In this document: positions 1-24,676 of the stretch, in pieces
Layout of the letters: each line of letters starts with the position of its first letter
Position numbering within the stretch: the stretch's first letter is position 1
Source of the DNA: Sphagnum compactum
Lineage: Eukaryota
Assembly (NCBI GenBank): GCA_965153455.1
Contig: OZ234493.1
Location: 10,220,213-10,284,212 of the forward strand
Length of the DNA: 64,000 nucleotides
Reading direction: 5' to 3'
Notes under the pieces: model-generated
Database searches by the model: none
Told to the model about the DNA's origin: nothing
What the model saw: only the letters and a program-made list of their open reading frames with translations
Made by a program: the position numbers and the translations under genes

Positions 1-59
1 TATTGAATTTAGGGTGTTTGACAGAAATAATGTTTTGCAAGATGTCTTGTTGCTTGCAG

Positions 60-2215: not shown

Positions 2216-2419
2216 CACTTTTATAAATTAGGGGTTTTATGCTGTAAATTTTGACTAAAATTTCAGTCATGACATACAATGGACAAAATGTCCTAAATTA
2301 AAATGGACTAGTCATTTCAAACTAAAATCTAACTAAGTTTGTTTTGACTGAATGTATGTTATGACTAAAATTTGTAATGTATGTTTTGATAGACCTAACT
2401 AAGTACCTAACTAACTTGG

Positions 2420-2880
2420 TTGCAAAATGGCATGTATGTTTTGACTAACCTAATTAACATGTTGGCCTATACCAAGGTGACACCCGGTATGTACATTTTG
2501 ATTGAACTAACTAAACATGACTAATACATTGGCCTACATTTTGGTACCACATGGAATATATGTTGTGACTGAGATGACTATTAAGTTTGCTAATACCTAA
2601 ATGCCACATGGCATGTATGTTTTGACTAAAATGATTTAAAAATGTGCCAATATCTAAGAGCCACATGGCATGTTTGTTTTAGTTAATAGGACTACCAAAG
2701 ATGCCAATAATTAGGTGCCACATGGCATGTTTGTTTTGATTGTGATGATTGACAAATGTGCCTATACCTAGTTGACACATGGAATGTATGTTTTGACTAA
2801 GATGAATAATGAATTAACTTATATTTATGTGCCACGTGGTTGTCTATTGTGATTAATTTTGTGACTAATATTGATTATGT
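2420..2880 (+). repeat. Subterminal tandem repeat of CACTA-A, ~57-bp period
   Basis: GCCACATGGCATGT(A/T)TGTTTTGACT-like units recur at about 2547, 2603, 2660, 2717, 2774 and 2830. Confidence 0.65.
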
Positions 2881-5789
2881 GGATGACTATAGGGCATGCC
2901 AAATGTCTTTTAACTATTCGTTCATTCTTTAATTGATTAATTATAAATGTATACCAACAATCAACTTAACTTATAGCCTAATTAACCTTACAATATATTA
3001 CAAATATATGCCTACATTAATACATTCACTTATTATCTACTTTGAACTTGTACATACCCATATCTCACACAAACATTACATGGATCATTGACACCGCACA
3101 CATGTATACTATTGCACAAACATATAAGAATTGCAAGCCAATATTTCATCACATTGCAAAAGTTTCAAAGCGTATTAAACATGATTTGATCCAAGGTTTA
3201 CTTGAGTCAATGAACACTATATTACACAATTGTAGAATGAAGTGGTTTGTTTCGAAGGCCAAAACACAAAATACCTAATTGCATATTCAACAATATGAAA
3301 AGGAAGGTCATGGTCTAAATTTGGAATTGGCAAATGAACACCTCTTATCAAGCAAATTGTAATGCCAACAGGAAGGCAATGTTCTGGCATTGAATGATTA
3401 TGATGTACAACTCCTTCACCCCCAAACTTGATGAAATTTCCAAGTGTACATTGTTTTCCTCCACTTGAACTAAGGTTGATATAATCATTCCTACGATACT
3501 ATAAAACAAATGTACAAATAAAACATTACAAGGAATTTGCAAATATATGATTGGATTTATAGCTCATTTTTTGTTGTAATTACCACATGTGACTTGCTAT
3601 AATGCCTAATCACCTTGGACAAGTCGCATAAAATTCTAGTCACAAAAGACAATATGTGGCACCAAGTTGCAAAGGTAGTCACATAAAGATGTGACTTACA
3701 TGAACTTTTCATCCATCCAAACTAGCTCATGTGGCATCGTCATTTTGTGACTGATTTTATGATTAAAAAATGTAGTCACATTATTTATATATTTTAAATA
3801 TTTTAATATTTTAATAATAAAATATGATTATATTATATATGTATATTATTGTTAATTTCATTAAATTCAACTTGTACCATGTTGACACATGTCATTCCAT
3901 AGGCTAGACTTTAAAAGCTAGTTTAGGTTGTTAGGTAGGCCACCTATTGTGCCTATTTAAGGTCACCTAATAGGTACTTGCCTATGTTGGTTACATAGGT
4001 AAAAAATATTCAGTCAACATTCTAGCATTCACCATAACCCATGCCATTCTTGAAGATTGATCCTTGAACCCCAAGGATGGAGATCAATTCCTTTACGACC
4101 AAGCCACCCCACTTGTGGAAAAGAAGTAACATGCATTTTATTTAACCTTTTTGATTTCAAACATCATATTTGAACTTTGATATCTTATTACGATTTTGTT
4201 CAAATGACAAGATTAAAGTTTAAACTTAAATTTTTTTCAATATTGTACATAAACATTTTTTTTTCCTCTTAAAAATATAAATCAATTTGAAAAAAATAAT
4301 ATTTGAATTTCATTATTCAATACAATTTCACAAACCATTATGTGGAAAAAAATTCAATCACATGATTTATAAATGGATAATATAATAACAAATACATAAG
4401 TAAATTTCATATCTTAAACATTCATTTGGTTCTAAAATTTATATTATACAATTTTTTTGATATATCATTATTTTCCCAACATAATTTAATTAAAACGTGT
4501 GATATATAATTTATTCACATATAATATTTATAAATGAATCATAAATAAGTTAATAAAAAATTTATGTAAAAATAAATTATATTTTTTCACATCTCAAACA
4601 TCTATTTGATTTAAGAAATTATTTTATACAATTTTGCTTATAATATATCATAATTGTACCAACAAAATGTAATTTAAATGTATGATATGCATGGGGTCAT
4701 AAATTACTCCTATTACCTAACATATTCAATAAATAAATTACATTGCCTACCCAATATAGTAATTAATTCAAAAAAATCACATATATCAACATGATAAAAT
4801 ATTTATTACTTAACCCACATACATATGACCTACTTGCTACTTATTACGTATCCTACTTATTTCCTATTTAATACATTAATTGCATAGCCAACCTAATTAT
4901 TTAATTACATTTACTACCTAGACCCTAACCTATTTAACAAATAAATTACATAGCCTAATTAATTAAATAATTAATACAAGAACATTATCACATATTAACA
5001 ATATGATAAAATACCTACTATTTAACCTTATTTCTACCATTAATTGCCACGGGTCCTTTGAAATTTTCACAAACCCACCAAACCTTACTACACATTTAAT
5101 GGCTAATTCACTGAAAAAAGTTAAGGGAAAACAATTAGACCATTAAATCCAGCAATTTCATGGCCAACTCGTTTTATTTTCACATTTAATTACATGTGCA
5201 TTTGCAACTAAAATTTATAGTCGCAAATCAACTAATTGAAAAGATGCCACGTGGTATCCAATGGCCTTTGAACCACCTTCTAAGTCACAAAAACAACTAC
5301 GTTTTCATCTATTTTGGGATGCCATTAAAAATGGATAATATAAGTGTAATTTGCGTTTTCATTTTCATCCAAATTGACATTAATCACAAGTATAAGTTGC
5401 ATATGCAACTACAAACCACTTTGTAGTCATTTATGTCAAGTGCCACAAGGGACAGTCTATATAAAGTCGCAAAAATGGTTGATTTGGATAGAAGTTGTAA
5501 ATGCATGGGTTGTAATGAAGGAAGTTAATAAGACAAAATAAATGAAATGTTTAATTACAAAGAACCATTTAATTCACTTTTGATCTAAAACATTTAAAGC
5601 ATACATACTTATTCTAAAACTTAAAAAATACAATCTACACATAATACAACAAGAACATGACAAAGGCAAAAGAGAAAACATGGTGATGTAAGGAATGCAA
5701 ATTAAGTGTTGACAGATGGAAAAGAGCAAACAAACATTGCAAATGATGTAAGCAATTCAACATGGTAACAATCAATGGCTTACATTTGG

Positions 5790-8700
5790 CTGGGTTTCTG
5801 CTGCCCTTTTTATAGCTGCCTCATCTACTACTAACCTAGTAGCTTGTTTGTAACCAATATTGTCTCGTATGGAGCCTTTTTTATTTGTCAAAACTATCCT
5901 TCATGATGTACTTCGCTTTGCCATGTGGCTTTGGAGTTCCCCACACAACTTTAAAACACCACCACATAAAAATCATAACAAATTGGCTTCATGACATTTG
6001 AATTACAAAAATTAGAACAAGTGGAAAACCATGGAAATGAAAGTCTAATGGGTTTTAGGTTGCAAGTCGTTTTAATCACCTAAGTAGGAGCAAACCGTGC
6101 AAAAGCTCTTAGGGCTTTCCAATGCAGGTTTTGTCTGCTAATTTGTTGCTGCCCATTTGGGTTGAATCCAACATACTTTAAAGCACTTGGAGCCTCAGAC
6201 AAGCCAACCAAGTAAAGCCACAGTTCCTCCAATAGATAGTTATCGTTGTATTCGTTATTAAATGGATGGGGCATGATATAAGAATAAAGAACATTACCCA
6301 TGCACTTGTATAAATAGTCATCAATCAACATGTTATTAGGACCCGATTGCTTAAACTCGGGACTAATTTCCTTCCACACCCTATCCATGTTTTTCGGAAC
6401 CAATGACCGGTCTTTGTTTAACGAATGGGGAATGCATGTGTCTAGACACTTCTCAACACCCCATAAAAAATAGGTTTGAACCCTAACAAACCCCTTAATA
6501 GTAAATCAACCATGAGTTTTAGATTAAGTAGAGTTGGTTGATGACCAAATGCTAATGTCAAACTTACTACTACACAACTCCAAGAATTATTGGGAATTAA
6601 GGCACAAGCTTACAAGTTTGTTTCCACACCTCTATGGAGGAATTAATGGATGCCATAGTTTCCTATATTTCACATGAATGGCTTCACATAACAAGCCATT
6701 CACATCTAAAACTAAGAGATGACGTTCCCTATGCATAGCTAGGGACATGTCATGGCATGAAATAGTGCAAGTGCCTGTTGGCAAATCAAACCTCATTTCT
6801 TTTGTTGTGTCCACATGGTGATCTAATTTCATGTGCATAGGAACATTTGCACCCATCAACATTATTTTACTAACTTCCAGCATATTTATCCCACAATTGC
6901 TAGATCCAGTCACATTTTGATTTGGCAATGTAAAGCCTTCATGATCAGATGCTTGGACCATCACCACTGTTAAATTGAGCTCCTTGCTAGTAGGCACATT
7001 AGAAGTTGATGGTGGTTTTGTAGGTAGGGAAAAATCTACAAATCCACAAACATTTTCATTTAACAACTTATGGATGATTGTTATTTTAGCTACATCAAAC
7101 TTTTGAAAAAAAAAACATTGAAAGAAAACAAATCAAATTCAACAAAAGCTATATGATAGGCCCACCTTCTACCCACCATTTGTCAATATGTTTTCAATTC
7201 ATATTACTCTTAAGAAATGCTAGTCATTTAGAAAACATTAACAAGGTAGCACCTAGAAATTCATCCCCTTTGACCTACTCCGGATTTATCTATTTAGCAA
7301 CCTCATTAGTACGCTTTATTGATGAAGTTAGGCCACCGCCCTAGCAACCCATCCCACAACATCCCTTTAGCCTAATTAAAATTTTGATTTAGAAATGAAA
7401 CTATAATGATAACTACACATGATATATCACATTTTGGAAGACAAACAAATTAGTTGGGTAATATTTCTTACCACTCCCATGTTACCATCATGATTAGATG
7501 AAATTTTTGTAATACCATCTAACAAATTTTCCCCCTTTGATCCTAAAAAACTAACATGAACAATTGATAATTTCATAAATGCACGGAGTTCTTCCATGAT
7601 TGTGTTCATTTACTTTTCTTGGTGTTTTAGTTGATCCTACAAGGTGGATTTCAACTCCTTAGTGCCCTTCACAATCTCATCATGGTTATTCTCCATGGCT
7701 CCTAGGCACATCTCTAGCTTAGATGTCAAGGAATGGCTTAGCTAGTCCATGTTTTCCTGTATTTGAAAGGGTCGGGACATAGTTCAATTCACAATGAATT
7801 CAATGGACCTGGAATGATGCAACATCCTTACTTGTCTTGATAATTAACCCTAGATGCATTTGAAATTATGAAACATATGTGAGGCACATTCCAACATCTA
7901 CAGATAGCCAATTTAAAAAGCACAACAGAAATCACCCATTTCAGAGTTTTGTGTACTTGGAAGATAATAAACCTAGCTAGGAGCCCAATTCTTAGCCTTC
8001 ATATAAAAATCTCTCCTAATATATTACCTCAAATTTCAAATTTAAGGACTTAGGATAGACTTTTTGCTTTAACATCTTTTTCATCCACCTCTGGCCTTTT
8101 CTGATTATAGGGTTTCTCTTGTTCACTTTCCTTTTGAAGCTCCACCAATGTGGGCTTACATCCTAGCCTTGCTTCCTATAGACCCCAACCAATTTGTAGA
8201 CCATTGCAAAATTAAAATCTAGCAAATTGTTCAAGGAAACCAAAAATAACAAGTTTGAAAACATGGTGGGAATTTTAAAAATTACCATCCGTTCCTCCAA
8301 CCCAATGTCACCTCCCCATTCAACTCGGGATGGAATCTTCTAAGCTATTTGAATTTTTGCCATTTGAATGGCCCTTACAATATTCTCCTATTATGTTAAA
8401 ACTTCAATCAGTTGTTTTTACTATGTTTCAGAGCAATTCCACGATCTCCCTTCACCTTTTTCCCATTTTTTTTCAATCATCCACACCTACTTTTCAAGAC
8501 AACAACCACTTGATCTTTGATGTACATGTAAGCAAGGGGATGGTCCAAGTACTCAAACCCCATCTCCAAGGCCTCTTTTATTGCCTCCAACTCTTTAGTA
8601 GATTGCGTATGAATGTCATCAATAGTCGGATTGAGTTTCAAGGCATAGCCTTGAAGTGCAGTTAACCAACTAACTCTGCCACCACCAACGAATTTGCCCT

Positions 8701-11700
8701 CTGGATTACAATGCACAACAGGTTTTAGATCTTTACCACGAAGTTCAACTGTTTCTATCCCAAGCCTTTTCATTACCTTGTCCAATGGCCAATGCCTAGC
8801 CTTTTGTTTAACTTGCCAGGAGGGTGTTTGCACACTACGATGACCTTATATGGATGTCACAATGGCAGTTTTTCCTGTATTCCTTAGATACAAAAATAAA
8901 ATAAAATAAAACTCATTGAAATAATAAAAAGGGACTCACTTATCTAAAGCTATCATAATCAACTTTCCAAGAATGAAAAAATCAAATCAAAATCATGGAT
9001 AACCAATTAATAATGGACTTTTGAATTTTGCTCACACTTTTTGTCACACTTGCAAAACTCACGAATATGGATTTTTATCTTACAATGTGTTAGTCTTATG
9101 CGTTTGAAACTTTGGGATATTGGATGAATTATGTTTTAAAAACTAAAGATCCATTGAATGAATGGAATGTGATTTTAATTTATTATGTTATGGACTTTTT
9201 AAAATCCCAAAAATTGTATTTATTTTAAAAGCATTTTCAAGCATTTAAAATTTATTATTAAAAAAATCTTTTGTGATATTTTATATATGTTTTATAACAT
9301 CATGATTTGAAATTGGAAATGGAAAGAAGTTACTTTCAATATCATCTAAATATTCATATTTTAAGCCATTTTTCAATTACATTAAAAAAAGACTTTGAAA
9401 AGGGAATTTAATTTGCCGAAATTGTGAAACCCTAATGTGCTTTCACCCAGAATGCGGACTAGATGAGACCATTGTGTTATCTAACTGGGTAGATGCACCT
9501 GTAATAGAATTGACATCTACATTGGATTGACCTCCATGTGTTTTTGGTGCATTTACAATATATGTAAGGCTTGTTGGATTACTTACTGTAACAAGCAACC
9601 CTCCTTGCACATGCATGGGTCCTAAAGTTCTAAGCCATGTTAAAGGGGTTTGCTACATTTGCAAGTACTAACTAGAAGGCACCAATGGGATTTGGGGGTA
9701 TTGATTAAATGGTGTAGAACTTGGATATGGGGTTGGGGGGAACTTAGTGGGTGGTGTCTACCGGATTGGGGTGTACTAAGAAGATGGGGGGTATTGAGAG
9801 GAGGGTGCACACCTAAAGTGTATTAAGTAGATGTTAGCAAGGGTTATGGGTATTGACTGGTTGCTTAAGACATTTGTGGGTACAGAGGGTTCTGCAATGG
9901 CATATGAATATATTAGTTTCTGCTATCGGCACATGTGGGTACTGATTGGATGATGGTTGTGAACGATAGGTAGCAAAAGTTGGTATAGTTGTGGAGTTGT
10001 GGGGAATAGTAGGCATGGGCCATCTAGGAGGCATGGGCCAACCAAGAGGTAGTTGCAAAGTCAATATATTGCATACAACACCTCAAGTGGGCCTTGTGGT
10101 ACAACATGTGGAAGTTGCTATGCATTCTCCATCACATGCAATCTAATATTGTGAGATGATTTTACATTAGTCAAGGTAAAACAAAATGAAACATCAACAA
10201 CATAAATAATAGTAAAATCAAAATCAATAAAAAATTGGATTAAAGGGAAATCCATCCAAGCCTACGTCATCTTGAGGTAAATGTTGAGTAAAACTGCCAG
10301 TTTCATAAAACTTAGTCAAGACAATTATAGTAGGCAAGGAATTTATAGTTTCTTTTCTTGTTTGTTTATTCAAAATCCTTTCACCACTGGAGCTATATTC
10401 ATCTTGTTGTGATGTAGGGGGTTAAGCTGCAACAACTTGGTGACCCACAAGCTTGTCAAAAAGATTTTACTTTAGTTGTTTCTGCATTGTCCACTGCTTT
10501 GGTTGGAGGTCTACACATTGTCCCTTCTTTTAAAACATGAACACCAAATGTTAGTCTTAGGTTTTAGTTTAGTGGAATTCTATTGGGCCATTATAGAACA
10601 CAAAGAATGTTTGGTACCTCAAGCTAAAAACACATTAATGTAAAATAAAATTGTAGTTCAACAAAACTTACAAAGAGCACCAACACTGGAATTTGTGATT
10701 TACCTAGGCTTCTACTTGCAAAACTTCAGGTTGTCAGATGCAAAAGGCAATGTGAAGAAAACCCCAAAACAAACAAGGAATGAAAAATTGAAAAACAAAA
10801 ATGGGACACACAAATATCATAATTATGGAACTAGAACAAACTAAGGATTTTCAAAAGGAAAGGAATTTTGACAATAACAATTTGGTCATCAAAGGAAACA
10901 TTTTGGGACAAGAGGTAGGGTTTTAGGAAGAAAAACATGTTTCCAACTTTTTCCTCCTCTAAATTATCATTAGATGTATCTTCAGTTTCATCTTTCACGT
11001 CTTCTTCACCAAATTCCTTGTCAGAGTCCAACTTTTGTTCTTGATTAGATTCTGAACATAATGGCCTAACTCCTTTGCTTGATTTAGAATTATTCTCAAC
11101 CACAACCATTGCAGACTTGCGGAAGTGCGTGCTACGTCAAAGCTTAAATGTTGGGTTGATGTTCACTTTCAAACGTCGAATTCAAGCAACAGCCAAAATG
11201 ACGTTCAAGCTTTCCGATGTATTTTTCCCTATAACATTCAAAACCACAACAAAAAAAGGGGGGAAAAAAAACACCAAAACTATTATAAGTGCATGTGAGA
11301 GTGAGAGCAATGAAGGGAGAATGAAGATGAATGTAAAAAGATCAAACAAACAGATTAAAAAAAGGCATTGGAGAAGGCGAAAACCAAAAATGAATCGTAG
11401 CTAAAATTCAAAATTTCAAAGTACCACACATTGGATGAATAGGCAAGCATGGATTGTTGAACTTTATCTAGAAATGAGATGAAAAGTAGGTTTAAAGAAG
11501 AAACCTATTTACCTTAAACACAAATGGTGCCCAATTCTCTAACCTTATAAACTTTGGCAAATAAATTATCCTGCAAGAAATTCAATTCCAAAGTTCTCTA
11601 AACCTATAATGCTCTACAAAGAAAGAACTTGAATTAGGAGCTCACTTCCAATTTGCTTCGAAAATTGATGCAAACTTTGCCTCATTTTTTGCAATTGTGC

Positions 11701-12110
11701 ATAGACATACCTAATCATATAGTCCCCTACAGGTTCAGTTGACGCACTTGCGACCTCCATCACCTCCTTATTAGTTTGGATTGCAAATGCCAATGCATGA
11801 GGTAAACAACAACCCTTATCCCACATTACAATGTTCTCCCACCCTCCATTTTCCCTTCTAACAAAAATGTGACTTTGCCATCATATTCCCACTTTGCACC
11901 TTTTACACCAAATACATTGACAAGTATATTCGCGCATGCTCCCTACTATTTCCCTCTTCAAGTGACACTTGTAACTTTTTAGTTAAAAGCTCCATTGCTT
12001 TTTTCTTTGCTGCCCACCTCAAAGTTGTTCCAATAATGCACATGTAGTTGTGTGCATTGCCATTTGACTACATCTCATAAACTGGAAATATAACTTTCTT
12101 AACAACCATT
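5790..12110 (-). pseudogene. Decayed multi-exon accessory gene(s) of CACTA-A: unknown N-terminus, Pro-rich linker, TnpA-like/ORF2 segment, coiled coil, C-terminal FCP1/NIF HAD-like domain
   Basis: A chain of minus-strand exon-like segments, several with AG/GT borders (ORF pieces 11614-11826, 10831-11109, 9834-10064, 8477-8833, 7427-7609, 6632-7066, 6080-6403), with scattered stops. It is transcribed divergently from the transposase. The TnpA-like call for 8290-8880 is from recalled similarity only. Confidence 0.55.
6080..6730 (-). pseudogene. FCP1/NIF (CTD-phosphatase-like, HAD superfamily) domain, frameshifted
   Basis: Motifs in order: RHLLVLDVNGLL, FDISIWSST, FLWGVEKC, PKNMDRVW, NNMLIDDYLYKCMGN..YSYIMPHPF. 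These match the plant FCP1-homology subfamily pattern LLVLDLNGLL..VGIWSS..K.L.K.W..NTLLIDDSPYK..NP. Confidence 0.8.
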
Positions 12111-13129
12111 TGTTAAAAAGTCTGATTTTTTTGCGTTTATATGGAATTGTGCAATGTGTACTGCCCTAGTAACATGTTTAAATGCTTCAAAGTACTATGA
12201 CAGAGTTAATCACATGCTTGTATGCCTAAAAACACTAAATACCCCTTTTAATATTAATAAATAATGCTTGTACATATTGTTTTCAATTTTAATTTTCAGT
12301 ATGTACATTGCTCGATACATATTAGTTTATGTTCTCAATTATATTATTACTACTTTAAATAATATGTACATTTCATAATCACAAAACCCTTTCCATTAAA
12401 TATGGACTATATTATTGCAAGCTTGCCATAATTACCAAATTAGCATAACCAATAAGCTATTACAATCCACACAATTTGTGTTTATATTCTATACCTAATG
12501 TATAAATTACAAATTATGGGTACATTGTGTTGCTTGGAAGTTGGGTTAATTTTAAAAATTTGGTGTTATTTCTTCCAAATTATGTTAGTCACTTGCAAAT
12601 TCAACAATCCTATGGACACTGAATTCCTTCTACTACCAGATTAATGTATCATGGCATGGTCTAACTTGTATTCAATGTATTACATGTTTTTTACAAGTTA
12701 TTGTGTGCAATGGCAAGAGTACCATTGCCCAATGGACAAATCCAATGGCGTATTGACACCTAAACACTATTTGATTTCAAAGATTTTGAGGCAAATCGAC
12801 AAGGTTTAATTAGTTATGAATGCCCTTGTACATGTTGCCATGGTGTAAGAATACAAACTTGTGGCACAATTAAAAAACATTTGAGACAAAATGGACATGA
12901 CCCATATCTCCGATGGCCAATGGTGGTATGGATTAATGTTGTGCGTGTAAATGGTTTGGGACTTACATTCCATGTATGTACAAATCCCATAATGAAATTT
13001 ATTTACACTCCGTACAAGTGTAAATGTATAAAATTTATTTACATTCACTATTAAAATTCTTGGTTTTTAAACGGTCCAAGTTGATTAATTCGTCTTTTTT
13101 GACTAGTGAACATGTACATTTTGACTAGA

Positions 13130-15907
13130 CAATAGTATAAAGTGGGGTGTAGTCCACTAGCTTAAATCATTATGGGACTTTAAAAGAGAAATAAGTTCAC
13201 TGCACTCTAGTGATTTCACCTTGGTTAAAGTTATTTCATTATAATATCAATATGTAAACATCATGTTTCACCATTAGTTGACATAATTCATTATTATAAT
13301 TTACTGTGGTAAATAGGTTTATTTTTATGTTGTTGTTTTAAATACCTTATGCTACTTTATGATATACCTTATATTATTTTAGGCTACCTTAGTTATTCTA
13401 ACTTATACCCTAAATTATTATATGTTATTCTATTTTAAGTTTTTTTAATTAAATTATTCAACTAACCTTAAGTTATACTTTAGGTTATTTTATTTTTAGT
13501 TAATATATGTTATTTCAAGTTATACTTTAAATTATTCAAGGTCATTCTATTTTATGCTATTATTAATTACTTTATCCTAAGTATAATAATTTAAAATAAT
13601 CTATAATGAAATATAATGACCTAAAGTAAAATAATTGGAATAATCAATAATAACATATGAAAAATATTTAGAATAACTTACAATAAAATAACTACTAATA
13701 GCCTATGATAATATAACTTAGAATATTCAACAATAACTCATAATATAATAATCATCAATAGTCGTAATATAACTTGTAATAACCAAATATAACCACTAAT
13801 AACCTATGATAATTTAACCACCAATATCCACTAATAACCATTAATAAATAGTTCCATTAATAGTCATTAATGGCCTATGGTAATTTAGTTTAAAATAACC
13901 ACTAATAGCCACCAATAGTCATTAATAGAATAACCACTAATAGTCATTAATAAAATAACCACCAATAGTCATTAATAAAATAACCACCAATAACCATTAA
14001 TAAAATAACCATCAATAACCATTAATAAAATAACCATCAATAACCATTAATAAAATAACCATCAATAACCATTAATAAAATAACCATCAATAACCATTAA
14101 TAAAATAACCATCAATAACCATTAATAAAATAACCATCAATAACCATTAATAAAATAACCATCAATAACCATTAATAAAATAACCATCAATAACCATTAA
14201 TAAAATAACCATTAATAAAATAGCCACCAATAGCCATTAATAGAATAACCACAATAACCATTAATAGAATAGCCACCAATAGCCATTAATAGAATAACCA
14301 CCAATAATCAGTAATAAAATAACCATTAATAACCATCAATAGAATAATGACCAATAACCATTAATATTAATAGAATAGCCACCAATATCCATTAATAGAA
14401 TAGCCACCAATAGCCATTAATAGAATGGCCACCAATAGCCATTAATAGAATGGCCACCAATAGCCATTAATAGAATAATCACCAATAACCATTAATAGAA
14501 TAATCACCAACATTTAGTACTAAAATAGCCAATAATAACCATCAATAGAAGAACTACCAATAACCATTAATAAAATAACCATTAATAACCACAAATAGAA
14601 GAACAACCAATAGCCACCAATAAAATATATAGGCACTAATAGAATAGGCACCAATAACCACCAATATAATAACCAAAAATAGCCACCAAACCAATAGCCA
14701 TAAATAACCTATGATAATATAACCTAAAATAGTCAATAATAACATAAGGTAAAATAACCAACAATAGCTTCATATAACCGTAAATAGTCTAAGAAGCTTA
14801 AAATAACAAAAAAAACTTATAATAACTACAAAAAGCTAAATGAAATAGCCTATAATAGCTAAAAATAACACAGAATGGCCAAAAATAACTTACAATAGTT
14901 GAAAATAGTCTAAGAGGAAATAACTTGAAATAGCCAAAATAACATAAAATAACTAAATTAACTTAAAATAATCGAAAGTAATTTGGGATGAAATAGTTTA
15001 AAATAACCAAAAAAATTTAAGAATAACTATAAATAATGTAGGGTGAAATAATTTAGAAGAATGAAAAGTAGCCCTAAACTAGCTAAAAATAACTTAACAT
15101 AGGTAGTAATATTATTTTAGTAAAAATCTTATACATTTATTAAACTTTTTTTTTCAAAAAAATGGTCATTGAAATGTTATTGAATAATGATATTCAAAAT
15201 AAAAATTCAAATGATTTTACACTTTCAAAAGGAAATAAATGTAATATTGTACATTATTGAAAAAAATAAATTAAGCTTTAATTATTTCATTTGAACAAAA
15301 TTTCAATAATATATGAATTTTCAAAGTTTATTTTTTGTAATGTTTAAAATGAAATATTTAATAAATAAAATGCAATCTAACACATTATCACAGAAAATGT
15401 GGTGGCTCGATGGTACAGGTATTTCCCTCCATCCTAAAGGTGAACTGTTCAAACTTCGCAAATGGTGTGTTTGTGGTCAATAGTGGTAAGTTGACCAAAT
15501 ATTCTCCTATGTAGCTCCTAGAGTAGTAGAGTATGTGCTTACTTGGGTTGATTACATGGCCTATGTACTTAGGCTAGGTTTATAACCTAGCCTAGGTAGT
15601 GGCACGTGTCAATAATCCAAAGGTTGAAAATCATGAAATTATCAATAATATTAAATATTAAATAATTTAAATTTAATTGATTTCCATGTTGTTTAGTTAA
15701 TTAATTAGCAAGTGAAATGGCTTGTTAAATTTGTATTTCACTTGAAAATAATTTTGTTTCACTAGATACTAGTGGACCAATTCATTGTTTGTAACAATTG
15801 GTCCTCGTTCATTAAGGGGTTGACTAGTTTCACCATGGTAAAAATGCATAAATTTACTCAAAATATAGTGAAATCCATAATGAACTAGGACGCATTTTGG
15901 TGTAGTG
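13130..15907. mobile_element. Probable non-autonomous CACTA element 'C' nested in B
   Basis: Right end TTTTGGTGTAGTG. Left end CAATAGTATAAAGTGGGGTGTAG, whose equivalent in the second copy reads CATTAGTACAAAAGTGGGGTGTAG. TTCAC/GTGAA subterminal repeats. TIRs are imperfect and the TSD is not clean (AGA vs AAG). Confidence 0.6.
13880..14640 (+). repeat. 25-bp minisatellite (TAACCATTAATAAAATAACCATCAA)
   Basis: Eight perfect units at 13991-14190, flanked by diverged units. Confidence 0.95.
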
Positions 15908-16179
15908 AAGGGCTAGGGGCTTGAATGACATGTGTATCTTTTAACTAATCAACTTGGTTGAAATGACATGTTTGACTATTTGTTAACTTGGACATATAGT
16001 CAAATTGGACAAAAATTTGACCACCTTGGTCAAAATGACCAATGATGTTTAATCAATTGGAATATTTAATCAAGTTGGACATAAACAAATGACACTTTTG
16101 GTCAAAATGGCTAATGGGGTTTCAATCAAGTATAATATTTAATCAAGATGACCAATGTTATTATAATCAAATGGGGCAT

Positions 16180-16440
16180 CCTACCTACATATCTACCATA
16201 TTCTACAACCTTCTTACCTACCTATTTATTGACTTATTGACCTACCTGCCTTTGTATTTACCTATTTATTACAACCTACCCACCCACCCACCCACTTACC
16301 TATCGACTTATCAACCCGCCCACCTACCCACCTACTAATTATTACCTACTTATTTACCTAGCTACCCACCCACCTACCTCCTTACCTACTTACTTACCTA
16401 CCCACCTACCTCCTACAACATACCTACCTACGTACCTCAT
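16180..16440 (+). repeat. (ACCT/ACCC)-rich low-complexity tract in CACTA-B
   Basis: Runs of acctacct, acccacc and acttacct. Similar tracts occur at 40780-40950 and 63790-63960. Confidence 0.7.
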
Positions 16441-19400
16441 AGTCTTGTAATGATGTGTCAAAATAAACATGTGAAATAAAAAACTTGACAAAAGTTGAAC
16501 ACCTTTTGATGGTGTGGTTCATTGGTGAAAGATATGGTTTATCATTGGGGAGGTCAAAGGTTCAATTCCTAATATTTGTAATTTATGTATATGTTTAGGG
16601 GTTAAGGTAGGTAGCTAGGTAGGTTAGGGTAGGCTACCACCTACCTACCTACTTACTTGCCTATATATATATTTTTTATAATAATATTAAAATAAATTAT
16701 TTAAATCATTTGACTAATCAAATGGTCCTTATTTTGCCAGTAAAAAAAACCACCCTAATCACACTAAACATGTTAAAATCGACTTGTCCAAAATGACAAG
16801 GGGTCGTTTTGCTCCCCCCCCCCCAATTTGGTATTTTTTTACTAGAATTCCTAGTTTCAAAAACCAAGAATTCTAGTAGTGATTTGTGTAAATGTAAGTG
16901 TAAAAATAAATTTATTTATATAGTTTTACATGGTCTGATAAAACAATGTAAATATTATATATATGTGTGTGTGTGATTTTACATGACTATGTAGAAAATG
17001 TAAGTTTTACTTGAGGAGATTCAAAAAAATAAAAAACATCAGCATTCAAAGGTGGGGGGGGGGCTTAGTTTTTGTGGTGAGTTAAATTTCACCCTATCTC
17101 TCCTTTTTCTTAACGCTTCCACTATTGCTCCTATTTGTAAAGCCAATATAATTAGTCTTGAACCTTGTGCATTAAATGTTGATTTTCAACATTTCATTCC
17201 TAGATCCAATAAATTTCCTTACTTTATGGATACCCTTGAAAGAAGGGTTTGGGGTGAAAGGAGGCCCAAATATAGGGTAACTTTACACATAATTTTAGTA
17301 TTTACACTTACACTTCCCAAAACATTTACATGGGGTCATGTAAATGTAATAAAATTTGGATGTGTAAGTGTAAATGATTTACACTTGCACTGGATTTTCA
17401 CGTTATATATATGGCTATTGACACTTACACGCATAACACTAGTATGGATTGCCCCCACTTATTCCATTCAATTTTGAATTTCTTAATTTTAAATAATAAC
17501 ACATAATTTTAAATGCCCAAATTGTGTAAGGGTTATAGAACATGGGAAGGAACCATTGTGGATTTAGAAAATTGCAGTTCAAAAGATGTTACTGATTTAG
17601 CATAAGTGCATTGTTTGATCCATGGACAAGAAGCAATACATGAACCTGCACCACATACTAATGGTTGCCACATGGATGTACCAGTTAGGAACCCAATAAC
17701 ACCCATGGCTAATGTTCTTAGGCTTGACCCAAAAGTTCAAATTCACAAGATGGTTGTTGAAGCATTTACCAACTTTGACAATTTACAATAGGGGTCTAAA
17801 GAACAAAACCCACCGATCATTGAGCCCTTGGAGAATCCACAAATGGACTTTCACATCCTAGATGACCAAGGATGACATCAAGCTATAATGGATTCAATGA
17901 TCATTAAAGCATCAACCCTATTGTTTGAAGGATCTTCAATAAACATGTTGTCCACCATGTTATTATTATTGAATTTGAAGATGGTCCATGGGCTAAGCAA
18001 TGTTTTCATGGATGAATTATTTTCCTTGTTTGCGAAAAAAACTGCTACCAAAGGGGAACACCATACTAGTCACAACTTACGAGGCCTTTAAGTTAGTTAA
18101 AGAACTTGGTTTGAATTATGATTCCATTCACAACTGCACAAATGGTTGTGTCCTTTTTAAGGGCACCTTGAATCATTCAAGGGTGTGTCCAAAATGTAAT
18201 ACTAGTAGGTTTGTGGAGAACTCATAAAGTGTTCCAAGGAAAGTGCTTTGGCACTTTCCTTTGATTCCACGACTATTATGGATGTATAGGTGCAAAACTT
18301 TGGCGGAATTGTTGATTTGGCACAAAGATGGAGCAAGCACAGATGGCCTAATTCGGAGTGTGTTGGATTCCCAAAGTTGGAAGCACATTACTAGAAAATG
18401 GTTGGATTTTGTAATTGAAGTAAGAAACATTCGATTAGGGTTAACACTAGATGGGGTGAACCCTTTTGGTGACTTGAGTTCGTGTTACATGGCCAATTGT
18501 TCTACTTTATTACAGTTTGCCCCCTTGGTTGGTAACAAAACATTACTTTATGACGTTGGCCTTAATAATTCCTGGCAAGGAATCTGCAACACCTAGAAAC
18601 ATAGATGTGTACTTGGAGCTTGTCATTGAGGAATTACAAATGTTGTGAAATGGTGTTAAAGCTTATGATTCATTATAGGGGGCAACATTCAACTTGAAGG
18701 CTATGTGTATGTGGAGTATAAACGACTTTCTAGCCTATGGACTGTTTGCAAGGTGTGTTACCAAAGGTCATGTGGGATCCCCATCTTGTGGCCCAGCTAC
18801 AAAAGCTCGTTTTTCAAGGAATTTTTTTCAAATGATTTATTGTGGGAGTCGGCGTTATCTACCAAGGACCCACCCCTATCGGCGAACTTGGACTACTTTC
18901 AACGGTGAAATAGAAAACATGGTGGCTATTGTGTGAGTGATTACATGAAATATCATAAAGTGGGGCAAGGAACGGGAAACATGGTTGCAAGGTCCATGGA
19001 ATAGAGCTGGCTCAAAACATGACCATGTACACAAACATGGCATCAAGCAGCATAACATCATGTTCAAATTTCTGTACTGGGAGGTAAGCATTACAAGCCA
19101 AAAACATTGGACTGAATTAGTTATGTTACATATTAGCATGGATTTTAGCTAGCCTATTAATTTACATGTCTAAGTCATATAAAGATTACATATTTGCAAT
19201 AATGATTAGTGTGATTAATGTGACTAATGTGGTCCTTATTACTATTAGGAATTGTTCATCTGCAACACCTTGGATGTCATGCACTATGAGAAAAACTTGT
19301 GTGAAAATTGATAAAAACTATTTTTGGCATTAAGGATATTGTAATAGTCCGGGAAGATATGGAACAATGTGGAATCTAGCCATATTTGTGGCTACAATCT

Positions 19401-20414
19401 AATGGGGTTGGGTTCATTAAACCTATAGCTCCATATGTTCTAACACGTGAGGAAAAAAATTGGTTCATGCAAATTATTGTAAACTTGAAAACTCCCACTC
19501 ATTATGTGTCTTCATTCAAGAAATGGGTCCAAAAGGATGGTGGTCTCAAGGGAATGAAATCACATAACTTTCATGTGATGATGCAAGACATTTTGCCATT
19601 ATGCATGCACCATTTAATGGCAAAAGGTTACAGAATGACCATCATCTGCTTGAGTCATATGTTCAAAAAACTATGTGCCAAAATTGTGGACCCAACAACA
19701 ATGGTTGAGCTCAAGAATGATGTGGTAGTCACACTAGTATTGTTGGAGAAGGAAATTCTTCCTTTCTTTAACACCATGACCCATCTTCTAGTCCACTTAG
19801 TTGAAGAATTGGAAATTTGTGGTCTAGTACATATGCACTAAGTGTATCCTGTGGAACATTATATGAAGACATTAAAGGGATATGTGAGGAACAAAGCAAG
19901 GCTTGAAGGATCCATGGCAGAAAGCTACACAATAAAGGAGGCATTGGGATTTTGCATAGAATATTTGCAAGATTTTACAGCCACAAAACAAAGGGTGTGG
20001 GATGAAAAAGAAGACCAATGTATGGTTGATGAGGTGGTTGAAGGAAACTGCCACCCACGAAAATTGAGTGCCGACCTTCGAGACATGGCCCATTCTTTTG
20101 TCCTTCAAAATGTGGAGTTAATGGTTCCACGACGCTTGTATGCCACTTTAAACTTTATACTAAATATTTTTAAGTTCCAAACATAAATTGGAGCTTTGCA
20201 TTAGATACAAGTCACAACATTATAACTTGTATATCTTAGTTGTTATGCTTGAACTAAACCATGGCTAAATTCTGATGGTAGGAAGCACACTATAGAAGTT
20301 GGGATATGAAATGAAGGAAGACAAAAGTTTTTACGAACTATTGGTCAATCCCAAGGTATAATTCATGTATTCCCAAACCACCTTGTAGAAGTTGTCTCAT
20401 TTCCAATTTGGATA

Positions 20415-22974
20415 CACTACTAGAAATCTTGTCATTTGCAACCAGTCACTATGCAACTGGCATGCAACTGGTTGTCGTTTGTAACTATCTTGGTCATGTT
20501 TGCAACTACAAATTCGGTATTGTATAATTTTTGGGCCATATGGTTGTGTGTGCAACTAACATGCAACTAAATGTGTACAACATGGACACGTGTCATAAAA
20601 ATAATGGCCCAAACTTATACATACTTAAATTATTATACTTAATATATCTACATAGGCTATATATAATAGTATTATGTACCTCTAGTACTAAGGGGTTTAA
20701 AATAACCTCTAAACTAACCTAGGTTAAAATAACCATGGTTAAACTAACCTAGGCTAAATAAACTAAAAAGTTAAACTAACCATGGCTAAATTAAGTTAGG
20801 CTAAATTAATTATGGCTAATTTAAATTAAGTTAAATTAACCATGGTTAAATTAAGCTAAACTAAATTAATTATGGCTAAATTAAATTAATTAAATCAAAT
20901 TAAGCTAAACTAACCATAGTTAAATTATGTTAGGCTAAAATAATTATGGCTAAATGAAATTAATTTAAATTACCTATGGCTAAATTAAGTTAGGCCAAAC
21001 TAATTATGGCTAAATCAAGTTATGCTAAATTAAATTAGATTGATATTAATTATGGCTAAACTAAATTAAGCTAAATTAAACTAGGCTAGAATAAATATGG
21101 CTAAATTAAGTTAGGCCAAACTAATTATGGCTAAATTAAGTTAGGCTATAATATTTATGGCTAAACTAAATTAGACTATATTTATTATGGCTAAACTAAT
21201 TAGGTAAAAATTAACAATGGTTAAATTAAGTTAGGTTAAAATAATTATTGCTAAACTAAATTATGCTAAATTAAATTAAGTTAAACTAAACCTTGGTTTA
21301 AATATGTTTGACTTTATTTTATTTTGGAATATTTTATCAGAAAATGTACATTTGATTAAACAAAAAATTATTCAAAATCAATTAATATGATAATATTAAA
21401 AAATTATTATAAATAATCATAATTATTAATTAAATGTTTATTATAATTATAGTGATAATCAATTATATATATATAATCAACAGGTATTATATATTTAAAT
21501 TTTATTATTTATGTTAAAATATTAATGTAAATAGGCTACATTAATTAACCTACAAGTATACAAACGTCCTAAGCTAATTATTAATTTAAACTAGATAATA
21601 ATATTAAAATCATATTTTCATTAAGTAATCATAATTACTAAAAATATCCTATAATCACCTTTGAAGTGCAAAAGAAAAGGAGTAATGAAAAACTAATGAG
21701 AAGAAAAATAAGAAAAATAAGCTTTCCAAGTTATAAAACGTTTTGTTTTTTTCTTTGGACCCCTCCTACTTTCAAAGCTCATAACTTTCTTATTTCTTAT
21801 TCATTTTAAACGATTTAAAGTGCTATAGGAGCGCCATCTGAAGTCCTACAAATCACATTGGAACTCTAATAGCAAAAAAACAACATAAAATGAACTTTCT
21901 GGGTGTTTAAGAACTGGCCATTGTAGTGTTCAATAGTTTCTTTTTTGAATTTTTTGACCCCCTTTACTTTGGGGGGCCATAACTTTCTCATTTCTAATCT
22001 GTTTTCAACGATTTTTAGTGTGTTAGATGCGCCAAGAGGAGGGCTTCAAGTTTTGTTTGGACACCAAAAGCAATAAAGCCATCCCCTGGCTGGTATACGT
22101 TAATACAGTAGTTGCATCTAATGTGCAACTAGGTTGGTTCATGAGGTTTGCAATGGAATGTTTTAACCCATATCCTTTGGCTTCCAATTCTATTTGGTTC
22201 AGTATATAAGTAGGAGCAATAGTTTTGTTGAAACCAAATACCAAGTGCCATTGGGGATGAGTGAATGAAAAAAACTTGACCTTTATGAAATGGTCAAACC
22301 TAAAAATAAAATTGGATTATTCTAAACCTATTTATATAACCTAAGCCTAGCTATTTTTCAACCTACTTACATACCTAAATAAATCTACTTACTTAATAGG
22401 GTTTAATTATTATCTACCTACCTAGGCACCACGTGTCAACATCTTATTAGCCATAAATTGGATGACGTAGATTTCATTAATTAATATTTAAAAATTTAAA
22501 AATAGGTGGGCCTTGATTGCCACGTGTCACCATATAATTGGTGTTAAAAATGAACACGTGTCAAATGGTCAATGAACGTCCCATGGTGTGCCATGTGTCA
22601 TCATCCTAGTGGCAAAAATATTAATGCTTGAGATTAATCCAATGAGTTTTTAATTTTGAAAACACAAAAAAATAAAATAATGACACGTGTCCACAAGCTA
22701 GTTGTCTAATTTTTAAACATGCGTCATATTTTGATTAGTTGCATTGTAGTTGCAAGGAAAGTTGCACATAAGGTGCAACTCATTTGGATTAGTATGTATG
22801 TATGAACATGTATACTAACATCGTATATACATGTTGCATACGTAGTGTCGCATGCAACTGCATGTCATGTGCAACTTGTCTTATGCAACTACACAAATTT
22901 GCAGTTACATGTGTCGCATGCAACTGAATTTTAGTTGCAAACGACAGTTGCAAAACCCAAATTTTCTAGTAGTG
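20415..22974. mobile_element. Non-autonomous CACTA element 'D' inserted in the transposase coding sequence
   Basis: Perfect 12-bp TIR CACTACTAGAAA. 3-bp TSD ATA at 20412-20414 and 22975-22977. TGCAAC subterminal repeats. Removing it restores the reading FPIWI-RTTICSTIKDG. Confidence 0.93.
20705..21295 (+). repeat. Degenerate AT-rich tandem array (GGCTAAATTAAGTTA/ATTATGGCTAAA units)
   Basis: Dozens of 10-15-bp variant units inside CACTA-D. Confidence 0.8.
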
Positions 22975-24676
22975 ATAAGGACTACCATTTGTTCAACCAT
23001 CAAAGATGGTGAAATAATTGACAAAGATGTTGTGCATATGTCCATGCCGCCAACATTGGAAGCTACAACATATCGTGCAATGTATGCTTTTGGAAACCAT
23101 TTATGTGTTTCAAGTGGTGAAGAACATTTGACGACAAGGGATAATGGCATTGTTGATACGTTTGAACAAGAATGTGTTTCAGGACCAAATGCTCAATGAC
23201 CTATCTTTGCAAAACTATAATATGTAGGCTGGATTGAAGAGATATTGGAGTTCAACTATGAGGTATTCAATACTATAATGCTTTTCTGTAATTAGGTGAA
23301 AGCAAATTACACGAGGAGTGTGCAACAATCAAAATAAACTAGTATGGCTTCACACTTGTTAATTTCAATTTTCTAATTCCCATATTTGATTAATCTTTTG
23401 CTTTTTCAATTCATGTCAAACAAGTGTTTTTTTTTTACTGATCTAAAGGAGAAAGGGTGAAAGGTAGTCTACACAAAGATCCATGTGGGAAAGGAGTAAC
23501 AAGGGGTGTTGACTTTGACTATATTGATTTGGATATGTTTAGAATTGAGAATGATGATAGTTACACTGGTTTACAAGCTCCAATTTCAATTCCCAAGGTA
23601 ACTCAAAGAACAACTATTGTTGGAGGAGTTCCATTCATGCCTATAGTTTTGGTAGATGTTGCTATTGTTGGAACGAATCAAGATGGTCATGATAGTGATC
23701 CACAAAGTGCGGATGAGTTTGTTGGGCCAAACAACTTTGACAATGATGGTTAACTAAACCTTAATTTTCTACAATGGTTTTACTTTCAAATTGCGATGAA
23801 GGTTCAAAACAATGTTCAAAACCATGTACATGTGTTACTGTAATTTTGTAAATCATCTACTTGACTTGAAGGCCTTTTTGTGACATTTGAAATATCCATA
23901 ATGTGGATTGTATGTTCAAAATTTCTATAGTAGTGTTGAACCATATATCCAAAAGTATAGGCCTTTAGGGTTAGATGATGAAGATCATCACATATATGGT
24001 CATCGGTGTGTGGTTCAATATTAATGTAATTTGGAACTACACATGATGTGTTCACTTTATTCATTACAAATATTAACTAAATAATGGTATTTGAATAGTT
24101 CAAAATTGATATATAGTAAATGGTTAATAATTATAATATATTTTGTGAAATATTAATATATAAGTATGTATAAAAATTCAAATTAAATATATTATATATT
24201 CCATTTTCCCATTTCATTTTTTTAAATTTCAAATTATTGTCCCTTTATTATAATTCTTTATTGCATGTGAAATAATCATTAATAATAGTCGATAAACATG
24301 TGAGCCTAACTATGCTAGTAGATTTTTTCTGTGATTAACACAAATAATAAAACATAAAATAGTTTTTTATTTTAATATTGCCACATCATATTATGACATT
24401 ATAGTCACATCAATCATAGTTTGATGACTAATTCTAGGCACATTAATCAACATAGACAACTGTGCATTGGTGCCATTTCCGCCACATGTGAAACTTGTTG
24501 TTTGATTTGACTGCAATGCTAGTTTTTTAGTCAAAACGAACATTGTTATTTTTAATGTTAGTCATAATGGACACCCTTAATCACTTCATACTAGAACTCT
24601 ATCCTATATCATGATTGTATAGTCATCTCAGTCATAATGTTAGTAGCAAAAAAACCATACTTTTGTAGTAGTGGTT

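What the first reader, a model, noticed from the sequence alone, without database searches (positions are those of the whole stretch)
2216..24673. Giant CACTA element carrying a divergently transcribed accessory gene that ends in an FCP1/NIF phosphatase-like domain
Seen: between two matching CACTA-like termini lie a TnpD transposase (+, from 12710) and, ~600 bp away head-to-head, a ~6-kb multi-exon minus-strand gene whose last large exon is an FCP1-homology HAD domain. Known: CACTA elements usually pair TnpD with TnpA, and FCP1/SCP enzymes dephosphorylate the RNA Pol II CTD. Inference: this may be a CACTA lineage that has stably recruited a CTD-phosphatase-like module, possibly fused to the TnpA-like protein, to act on host transcription or silencing. 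I do not know of this architecture being described, but I could not search. This copy is dead.
Basis: partly seen in the sequence, partly recalled or inferred. Interest (0 to 1): 0.8.

Follow-up and report, generated by a model that had tools for sequence, protein, structure and literature searches.

The report
Moss CACTA transposon carrying phosphatase-like gene
This is a dead copy of a moss CACTA DNA transposon whose second gene ends in an FCP1/NIF phosphatase-like domain that was kept under selection across many related copies, so the element family appears to have used a host-derived phosphatase-like module for its own purposes.

Summary
Window 2216-24673 is one decayed CACTA element. About 14.1 kb is the element itself and 8.4 kb is three nested non-autonomous CACTA insertions. 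Both ends are confirmed by comparison: homology with related copies stops at 2221-2227 and exactly at 24673. TnpD (Transposase_21, DUF4218, weak Transpos_assoc) lies on the + strand. An approximately 5.9-kb minus-strand gene made of collinear conserved blocks starts about 795 bp away, head to head. Its last exon (about 7099-6083, four in-frame stops) is a NIF/FCP1-homology domain. Pfam alone gives only E 0.12, but the best relative scores E 1.6e-44 and is itself a clear NIF protein.

The family-level claim is supported. In moss-derived metagenome contigs I found 45 distinct copies in 12 subfamilies. TnpD lies upstream on the opposite strand in 9 of the 21 copies with at least 9 kb of flank. 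All 39 usable transposon NIF sequences form one clade. Their pN/pS is 0.38-0.56, against 0.85-1.1 in shifted-frame controls and 0.33-0.47 for TnpD.

The domain has D-V-N-G in place of the catalytic DxDx(T/V), as do its uncharacterised plant relatives, so CTD-phosphatase activity is not shown. No TnpA (PF03004) match was found. No copy is intact, and RNA evidence could not be obtained.

The parts
2216..24673 (.). Whole decayed CACTA element (22,458 bp; about 14,068 bp without the three nested insertions)
   Evidence: Homology with related copies ends at 2221-2227 and exactly at 24673. The flanks form one ORF across the junction.
2216..2246 (+). Left terminal inverted repeat, degenerate (CACTTTTATAAATTAGGGG...)
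   Evidence: Homologous ends in L008, L017 and L056 read CATTA(C/T)TACA.ATTAGGG. L020, L059 and L001 read CACTACTACA at their NIF-proximal end.
24643..24673 (-). Right terminal inverted repeat (CACTACTACAAAAGTATGG...)
   Evidence: L032 carries CACTACTACACAACATGGG at the aligned position.
2547..2809 (+). Subterminal 57-bp tandem array (4.6 copies) carrying the TTTGACTAA motif
3524..5517 (.). Nested non-autonomous CACTA-like insertion (ends CATTACAA...TTGTAATG)
   Evidence: Absent from the aligned site in L008, L017 and L056
6083..7099 (-). Last exon of the accessory gene. The NIF/FCP1-homology domain spans about 6730-6113. In-frame stops lie at 6634-6632, 6589-6587, 6526-6524 and 6508-6506. The natural stop is at 6082-6080. 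The acceptor at 7100/7099 is inferred.
7613..7758 (-). Conserved coding block (helical, '...LEAMENNHDE...')
   Evidence: tblastx, same strand, up to 8 of 10 distant copies
8064..8181 (-). Conserved basic block
   Evidence: Up to 6 of 10 distant copies
8236..8825 (-). Block B, the largest conserved block upstream of NIF. No known family. It has a frameshift near 8477 in this copy.
   Evidence: Up to 9 of 10 distant copies. pN/pS 0.46 against 0.69 and 1.02 in shifted frames. 43 fragmentary relatives, none with a Pfam domain.
10948..11103 (-). Conserved acidic block ('...FGEEDV.DE.E...')
   Evidence: Up to 7 of 10 distant copies
11654..11958 (-). Block A, the N-terminal Cys-rich block. The putative ATG is at 11937 (MREYTCQCIWCKRC...), with one in-frame stop.
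   Evidence: pN/pS 0.52 against 0.83 and 0.91.
11938..12731 (.). Approximately 795-bp spacer between the two divergent start codons. A role as a shared promoter region is inferred.
   Evidence: Positions. The head-to-head layout recurs in L005, L010, L020, L047, L056, L059 and L066.
12732..13045 (+). TnpD 5' part (Transpos_assoc, sub-threshold)
13046..16881 (.). Nested non-autonomous CACTA element, TSD ATT/ATT. A related copy lies at 39142-40363.
17876..20186 (+). TnpD core in several frames (Transposase_21 at 18228-18596; DUF4218 at 19380-20186)
20415..22974 (.). Nested non-autonomous CACTA element, TSD ATA/ATA
22975..23753 (+). TnpD 3' part
   Evidence: Collinear matches in L010, L029, L032, L056 and L066

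Best explanation
Window 2216-24673 is a dead copy of an old moss CACTA (En/Spm) family with three later insertions nested in it. The family has two genes that diverge from a short central spacer. One encodes the TnpD transposase. The other is a multi-exon accessory gene whose C-terminal domain is a NIF/FCP1-homology HAD domain.

That domain entered the lineage once, from the plant D-x-N-G branch of FCP1-homology proteins. It then co-diverged with the transposase and stayed under purifying selection as strong as that on the transposase. It therefore served the element and was not a passenger.

Inferred, not shown: the accessory protein works as a phospho-protein-binding or slow phosphatase module. 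The nucleophilic Asp, the Ser/Thr motif and the DD motif are kept, but the acid/base Asp is Asn. It may act on RNA polymerase CTD-type substrates or on host FCP1-family silencing pathways, to favour transcription of the element or blunt its silencing. The upstream blocks may supply element recognition. Every copy seen is now a pseudogene.
For: ELEMENT AND ENDS.

TnpD DOMAINS.

NIF IDENTITY. phmmer gave 515 hits at E<=1e-3 and 239 at <=1e-10. The best full-length hit, P0002, scores E 1.6e-44. All 10 of the long hits I scanned carry PF03031, with E from 1e-15 to 1e-42.

FAMILY-WIDE PRESENCE. The search returned 80 loci, which reduce to 45 distinct copies.
- Of the 21 copies with at least 9 kb of upstream flank, 14 have block B, 8 have block A, and 9 have TnpD on the opposite strand. 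In 7 of those 9 the TnpD 5' part is head to head with the accessory gene.
- TnpD-linked copies occur in 6 of 12 subfamilies, and block B in 9 of 12.
- A CACTA-type end lies 1.1-2.4 kb beyond the NIF stop in L001, L005, L008, L017, L020, L033, L056 and L059.

SINGLE ORIGIN. All 39 transposon rows form one clade (SH-aLRT 100, stem 1.14) among 165 rows.

SELECTION.
- NIF pN/pS is 0.38 for the C half, below 1 in 860 of 860 pairs. It is 0.56 for the N half, below 1 in 660 of 666 pairs. Frames shifted by 1 or 2 give 0.85-1.11.
- Between subfamily majority sequences the ratio is 0.39-0.41, against 0.92-1.18.
- TnpD measured the same way gives 0.33-0.47.
- The majority sequence of the window's own subfamily has no stop.

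CO-DIVERGENCE. TnpD and NIF distances correlate (Spearman 0.45 over 33 non-independent pairs), and the nearest pairs are the same for both.

MOTIFS. D-V-N-G or a near variant, WSS and LIDD are conserved across copies.
Against: - No RNA or splice evidence. The only read-laying run returned nothing, so one transcript joining blocks A, B and NIF is an inference.
- No copy with an uninterrupted NIF exon was found among 45. The longest ORF over the C half is 170 aa. Of 42 aligned copies, 41 have at least one in-frame stop.
- Several subfamily majority sequences still carry 1-5 stops. Some 'copies' are therefore duplicates or orthologues of already dead copies, or were mobilised in trans. The number of independent copies is below 45.
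- Copies were ascertained with NIF as the query, so elements of this family without NIF would not have been seen.
- Of the 21 copies with long flanks, 12 show no TnpD within 10 kb.
- The canonical DxDx(T/V) motif is absent, and the host branch is uncharacterised. Any substrate is a guess.
- The 3-bp target duplication of the window copy does not match (ATC against GTT).
- pN/pS rests on tblastn-anchored alignments and on saturated pS (about 0.7). The pairs are not independent.
Confidence: 0.78

Rival explanations
1. Passenger capture. The NIF exon is a transduplicated host gene fragment (Pack-CACTA style). It was carried along and amplified without any function for the element.
For: CACTA elements are known to pick up host fragments (recalled, not from a call). 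Every copy seen is broken. Some subfamilies share stops, so they spread or were duplicated after the domain had already died.
Against: pN/pS is 0.38-0.56 in the true frame against 0.85-1.18 in shifted frames, which equals the constraint on TnpD. The whole domain with its motifs and its natural stop is retained across 12 subfamilies that differ by a median 39% at the nucleotide level. The copies form one clade with a long stem.
Confidence: 0.08
2. Separate genes. The NIF exon is its own small gene, or an alternative 3' exon, inside the element. It is not the C-terminal domain of the protein encoded by blocks A and B.
For: No RNA evidence was obtained. No database protein joins the blocks: all transposon-type hits are short single-ORF fragments. 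Twelve of 45 copies have NIF with at least 2.5 kb of upstream flank (8 of 30) or at least 9 kb (7 of 21) but no detectable block B.
Against: Same strand, fixed order and similar spacing: block B ends 1.5-2.9 kb before NIF in 21 of the 22 copies that have it. The NIF exon's open frame extends upstream to a polypyrimidine-AG with no conserved ATG of its own. Coding constraint is seen in all blocks.
Confidence: 0.15
3. Chimera. The 2216 end and the NIF gene belong to a different element from the TnpD and the 24673 end, and the two were joined by nesting or recombination.
For: The 3-bp flanks differ (ATC against GTT). The two ends are only 62.6% alike over 139 bp.
Against: The same order (end, NIF, block B, block A, divergent TnpD) recurs in seven distinct copies (L005, L010, L020, L047, L056, L059, L066). 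The L032 group has the 24673-type end, the TnpD 3' part, block B, NIF and left-end homology on one 9.2-kb stretch. The flanks form one ORF across the junction. The subterminal motif is shared in inverted orientation.
Confidence: 0.03

Closest known systems
CACTA / En-Spm superfamily elements (TnpD plus TnpA)
   Same: CACTA-type termini, subterminal repeats, 3-bp duplications on the nested members, and a TnpD-type transposase with Transposase_21 and DUF4218.
   Different: The second gene is transcribed divergently from TnpD. It matches no TnpA family (PF03004 not found). It ends in a NIF/FCP1-homology domain.
Plant 'FCP1 homology domain-containing protein C1271.03c-like' proteins (D-x-N-G branch of PF03031; source names)
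   Same: Same domain, with E down to 1.6e-44. Same D-[VLI]-N-G first motif (118 of 126 host domains) and the DD fourth motif.
   Different: About 30% identity. Own signature residues (CGNK, YKC.GN.P.SYI). A separate clade on a long stem. Multi-copy and located inside transposon ends.
FCP1 / SCP1 / CPL RNA polymerase II CTD phosphatases
   Same: HAD-type NIF fold family. The nucleophile Asp and the motif II and motif IV residues are kept.
   Different: The second Asp of DxDx(T/V) is Asn. There is no BRCT or dsRNA-binding domain. Activity is untested. Plant CPL1 and CPL2 are tied to DNA methylation and H3K27me3-linked repression (PMC3776750 and PMC7718874; I saw only the search listing and abstract starts). 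That link is the basis of the silencing idea and nothing more.
Transposon families that keep a host-derived accessory domain (ULP1/Peptidase_C48 in MULEs, VANC in VANDAL, PMD)
   Same: A host-type domain retained in an autonomous DNA transposon and thought to help it against host control. PMC12973397 (passages seen) names VANDAL accessory proteins, Peptidase_C48 and PMD among active plant TIR elements.
   Different: A different superfamily and a different domain. 'Phosphatase' and 'NIF' have 0 occurrences in that paper's main text. Its Table S6 of Pfam domains could not be read.

Membership tests
CACTA / En-Spm superfamily | Terminal inverted repeats beginning CACTA/CACTG | tested here: met
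   The right end is CACTACTACAAAA. The left end is decayed to CACTTTTATAAA, but it is homologous to CA(C/T)TA(C/T)TACA ends of relatives.
CACTA / En-Spm superfamily | 3-bp target-site duplication | tested here: not met
   ATC against GTT for the large element. It is met for the nested elements (ATT/ATT and ATA/ATA). The two differences are both transitions, so decay is possible, but that is inferred.
CACTA / En-Spm superfamily | TnpD-type transposase (Transposase_21, with DUF4218 and Transpos_assoc) | tested here: met
   PF02992 at 49.4 bits, PF13960 at 34 and 48.8 bits, and PF13963 at 20.1 bits (below its 27.7 cut-off).
CACTA / En-Spm superfamily | TnpA-like second protein (PF03004, Transposase_24) | tested here: not met
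   No Pfam match in any frame of 7100-12700 on the minus strand, in block B of 9 copies, or in 6 natural block-B ORFs.
NIF / FCP1-homology domain (PF03031) | Significant match to the family profile | tested here: inconclusive
   The window copy alone scores E 0.12 and 12.5 bits against a 21.8 cut-off, although the match spans profile positions 2-154 of 160. Its relatives at E 1.6e-44 to 1e-14 score 58-146 bits on PF03031. Homology is therefore established transitively.
FCP1/SCP CTD phosphatases | Catalytic DxDx(T/V) motif | tested here: not met
   The window has D-V-N-G. This exact motif is found in 19 of 39 transposon copies, and the rest are mostly decayed variants of it. The host branch has DxNG in 118 of 126 domains.
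FCP1/SCP CTD phosphatases | Dephosphorylates the RNA polymerase II CTD | not testable with these tools
   Needs an enzyme assay on an intact or ancestral-type domain.
Pack-type gene-fragment capture | Captured fragment evolves neutrally and is restricted to one element or subfamily | tested here: not met
   pN/pS is 0.38-0.56 against 0.85-1.18 in controls. The domain is present in 12 subfamilies.

The most novel reading that the evidence does not exclude
The accessory protein is a transposon-encoded FCP1-homology pseudo-phosphatase or slow phosphatase. It docks on phosphorylated polymerase CTD-type repeats, or competes with host CPL-type enzymes. It thereby drives transcription of the element or blocks its silencing. 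This would be a CACTA counterpart of the VANDAL anti-silencing factor, and the first transposon-borne CTD-phosphatase-like module.
Probability: 0.2. Interest if true: 0.85.

Novelty: new variant of a known kind. Interest (0 to 1): 0.62.

Why it matters
DNA transposons rarely keep host-derived enzymatic domains for long. The known cases (ULP1-type protease in MULEs, the VANDAL anti-silencing protein) have been informative about how elements fight host control.

Here a whole CACTA lineage in mosses kept an FCP1-homology domain under selection comparable to that on its own transposase. That gives a concrete candidate for a new kind of transposon-host interaction at the level of polymerase CTD or phospho-protein signalling.

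It also gives a functional hint for a widespread but uncharacterised plant branch of FCP1-homology proteins that carry D-x-N-G in place of the catalytic DxDx motif.

I found no paper linking CACTA/EnSpm elements with this domain. The searches were made, run over the held library only.

Tried and rejected
- No whole genome is held for this window. The proposed genome-wide count of PF03031 and PF02992 co-occurrence could not be run.
- Sequencing runs: no RNA holder is listed. There is therefore no expression, splice or depth evidence.
- The word-indexed protein search with the read-through NIF exon found nothing at near lengths. The exhaustive search did find relatives.
- The sequence search of solved structures gave only chance-level hits, E>=0.06.
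- Block B and block A have no Pfam family. Block B has no relatives among 287-2000-aa proteins. It has 43 short fragment relatives, none with a Pfam domain. The protein atlas gave no usable hit.
- The AlphaFold model of a block-B ORF was poor (pLDDT 58.5, mostly helices). I ran no fold search on it.
- Earlier findings of this scan: nothing by place, sequence or words.
- A donor host gene could not be named. The transposon clade sits on a 1.14 stem, sister to all sampled host domains under midpoint rooting.
- The first alignment given to the locus search (A1) was too diverse. A narrower one (A2) worked.
- The L032 NIF-side end is too decayed to place to the base.
- Pfam on the two flanks did not identify a shared family. 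It gave only weak MULE and ZSWIM RNaseH-like hits further out.


Full report
WHAT IS THERE

The window is AT-rich eukaryotic DNA, and no whole genome is held for it. Public runs of one coded organism hold 68-89% of the sampled words of 6000-12700.

On the + strand, Pfam finds three pieces of a TnpD-type transposase:
- Transposase_21 at 18228-18596 (49.4 bits).
- DUF4218 at 19380-20186 (34 and 48.8 bits).
- Transpos_assoc at 12764-13054 (20.1 bits, below its cut-off).

The gene is in pieces, for two reasons. Two non-autonomous CACTA elements sit inside it: 13046-16881 (flanks ATT/ATT) and 20415-22974 (flanks ATA/ATA). The remaining parts also lie in several frames.

THE ENDS

The right end is CACTACTACAAAA at 24673. 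The left end at 2216 is decayed (CACTTTTATAAATTAGGGG). It matches the right end only weakly, at 62.6% over 139 bp, although this is the best inverted match in the window.

Related copies settle the matter.
- L008, L017 and L056 are about 85% identical to the window. They align from the NIF exon down to window 2221-2227, then run into unrelated flanks. At that point they read CATTACTACATATTAGGGG or CATTATTACAAATTAGGG.
- More distant copies have CACTACTACAAA-type ends at the matching place, 1.1-2.4 kb beyond NIF.
- L032, L035 and L039 align to the right end starting exactly at 24673, and read CACTACTACACAACATGGG there.

The same comparison shows that 3524-5517 is a third nested insertion (ends CATTACAA...TTGTAATG), because L008, L017 and L056 lack it. 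Without the three inserts the element is about 14.1 kb.

The 3-bp flanks differ (ATC against GTT). On the minus strand, however, the two flanks read as one ORF of 115-116 aa across the junction. That ORF lies inside a decayed MULE-like remnant. A 57-bp subterminal array lies at 2547-2809. The TTTGACTAA motif is enriched (9 found against 1.55 expected) and occurs at both ends in inverted orientation.

THE PHOSPHATASE-LIKE EXON

Positions 7132-6080 on the minus strand form a single frame with four internal stops. Pfam NIF alone is sub-threshold (E 0.12), but the match spans almost the whole profile. The word-indexed search found nothing.

The exhaustive phmmer search found 515 proteins at E<=1e-3. 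The best full-length hit is a 588-aa moss protein with two NIF domains, at E 1.6e-44. All 10 long hits that I scanned are clear PF03031 proteins. The source names include 'FCP1 homology domain-containing protein C1271.03c-like', and some are mislabelled as TIM50.

The many short hits at 44-79% identity are ORF fragments of other transposon copies.

IS IT A PROPERTY OF THE FAMILY?

A scan of metagenome contigs with an alignment of those fragments returned 80 loci of up to 20 kb. Merging at 97% identity or more leaves 45 distinct copies. These fall into 12 subfamilies at 25% nucleotide distance, and the median pairwise distance is 0.39.

I compared translated window ORFs against the loci. Among the 21 copies with at least 9 kb of flank upstream of NIF:
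- 14 have block B (window 8236-8825) on the same strand.
- 8 have block A (11654-11958).
- 9 have TnpD pieces on the opposite strand. In 7 of these the TnpD 5' part is head to head with block A.

TnpD-linked copies occur in 6 of the 12 subfamilies. The L029 and L032 groups are internal-deletion derivatives, in which the TnpD 3' part abuts the middle of the accessory gene. The remaining 12 of the 21 show no TnpD within 10 kb.

All copies were found with NIF as the query. Elements of this family that lack NIF would therefore have been missed.

GENE STRUCTURE

tblastx of the window against 10 distant copies gives collinear same-strand blocks:

| Window coordinates | Copies matched (of 10) |
|---|---|
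| 11958-11744 | up to 7 |
| 11719-11654 | up to 4 |
| 11103-10948 | up to 7 |
| 10540-10475 | up to 4 |
| 8825-8236 | up to 9 |
| 8181-8064 | up to 6 |
| 7758-7613 | up to 8 |
| 6806-6082 | 10 |

Block A begins with a Met followed by a CxCxxCxxC run, at 11937 in the window. The TnpD ATG is at 12732, so the two starts are about 795 bp apart.

The NIF frame opens just after a polypyrimidine-AG at 7100. It ends at a stop whose position is shared by other copies.

None of the upstream blocks matches a Pfam family. That includes the TnpA family PF03004.

That these blocks make one mRNA is inferred. The read-laying run failed and could not be repeated.

SELECTION AND ORIGIN

I built codon alignments anchored by tblastn and masked the stops. 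Results by region:

| Region | pN/pS, true frame | Pairs below 1 | pN/pS, frames shifted by 1 or 2 |
|---|---|---|---|
| NIF, C half | 0.38 | 860 of 860 | 0.95 and 1.11 |
| NIF, N half | 0.56 | 660 of 666 | 0.85 and 1.08 |
| NIF, between subfamily majority sequences | 0.39-0.41 | not counted | 0.92-1.18 |
| Block B | 0.46 | 209 of 210 | 0.69 and 1.02 |
| Block A | 0.52 | 43 of 45 | 0.83 and 0.91 |
| TnpD, three regions | 0.33-0.47 | not counted | 0.62-1.37 |

The pairs are not independent, and pS is near saturation.

In a tree of 165 domains, all 39 transposon rows form one clade (SH-aLRT 100) on a stem of 1.14. No particular host sister can be identified.

TnpD and NIF distances between the same copies correlate (Spearman 0.45, 33 pairs), and the same pairs are nearest for both.

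No copy is intact. The longest ORF over the C half is 170 aa. Of 42 aligned copies, 41 have in-frame stops, with a median of 3.5. Several subfamily majority sequences keep stops of their own, so part of the copy number arose after the domain had died in those lines. The majority sequence of the window's own subfamily has none.

WHAT THE DOMAIN CAN DO

The copies conserve several motifs:
- LLVLDVNGLLC.
- FD.GIWSS.
- NTLLIDDCPYKC.GN.P.SYI.

These correspond to the HAD nucleophile Asp, the Ser/Thr motif and the DD motif. The second Asp of DxDx(T/V) is Asn.

The same D-[VLI]-N-G motif occurs in 118 of 126 host domains of this branch. The feature is therefore inherited, not a product of decay.

From general knowledge of HAD phosphatases (recalled, not from a call), that Asp is the general acid/base. 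Efficient turnover is therefore doubtful, and a binding or trapping role is plausible.

Host FCP1-family enzymes CPL1 and CPL2 are linked to DNA methylation and H3K27me3-coupled repression in Arabidopsis. The sources are PMC3776750 and PMC7718874, of which I saw only the listing and abstract starts. This makes an anti-silencing or transcription-promoting role a reasonable guess and no more.

COMPARISON AND NOVELTY

The element is a CACTA member by its ends, subterminal repeats and TnpD. It fails two features: the 3-bp duplication in this copy, and the TnpA family match.

The accessory domain is a NIF-family member by transitive homology. It is not a canonical CTD phosphatase.

Seven literature searches combining CACTA/EnSpm/transposon with NIF, FCP1, PF03031, CTD phosphatase or haloacid dehalogenase found no report of this architecture. 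A recent survey of active plant TIR elements names Peptidase_C48, PMD and other added domains, but 'phosphatase' has no occurrence in its main text (PMC12973397, passages seen). Its supplementary domain table could not be read.

VERDICT

This is a real, old, now extinct-looking CACTA lineage of mosses with a selected FCP1-homology accessory domain. I rate it a new variant of a known kind. The function is unproven, and the transcript structure is inferred.

Noticed in passing
window 24674-27000 and 1-2215, minus strand: The CACTA element sits inside a decayed MULE/FAR1-like transposase remnant. The ORF at 25531-25893 gives weak hits to the MULE domain (E 0.08) and to the ZSWIM1-3 RNaseH-like domain (E 0.019). 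The two flanks of the CACTA element join into one ORF of 115-116 aa.
   Followed up: partly
window 39142-40363: A second, inverted copy (71-89% identical) of the non-autonomous CACTA element that is nested at 13046-16881.
   Followed up: no
window 61164-61443: A 280-bp stretch 62% similar, in direct orientation, to the subterminal region 24278-24534 of the element's right end. It may be the end of another family member.
   Followed up: no
window 4159-4352 and 15148-15335: The nested inserts at 3524-5517 and 13046-16881 share about 190 bp in inverted orientation (76-82%), so they are related non-autonomous elements.
   Followed up: no
window 14000-14210: A 25-bp tandem array (AAATAACCATCAATAACCATTAATA-like units) inside the nested element. 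It appears as a ladder of inverted-repeat hits.
   Followed up: no
proteins P0008 and P0010 (sunflower-family hosts): Some host relatives combine two NIF domains of the D-x-N-G branch with a C-terminal DUF724 domain. This architecture may hint at what the uncharacterised host branch does.
   Followed up: no
L056 and L017, NIF-side flank: These two loci share the element and also about 40 bp of nearly identical flank. They are therefore the same insertion seen in two related genomes or haplotypes, not independent copies.
   Followed up: partly
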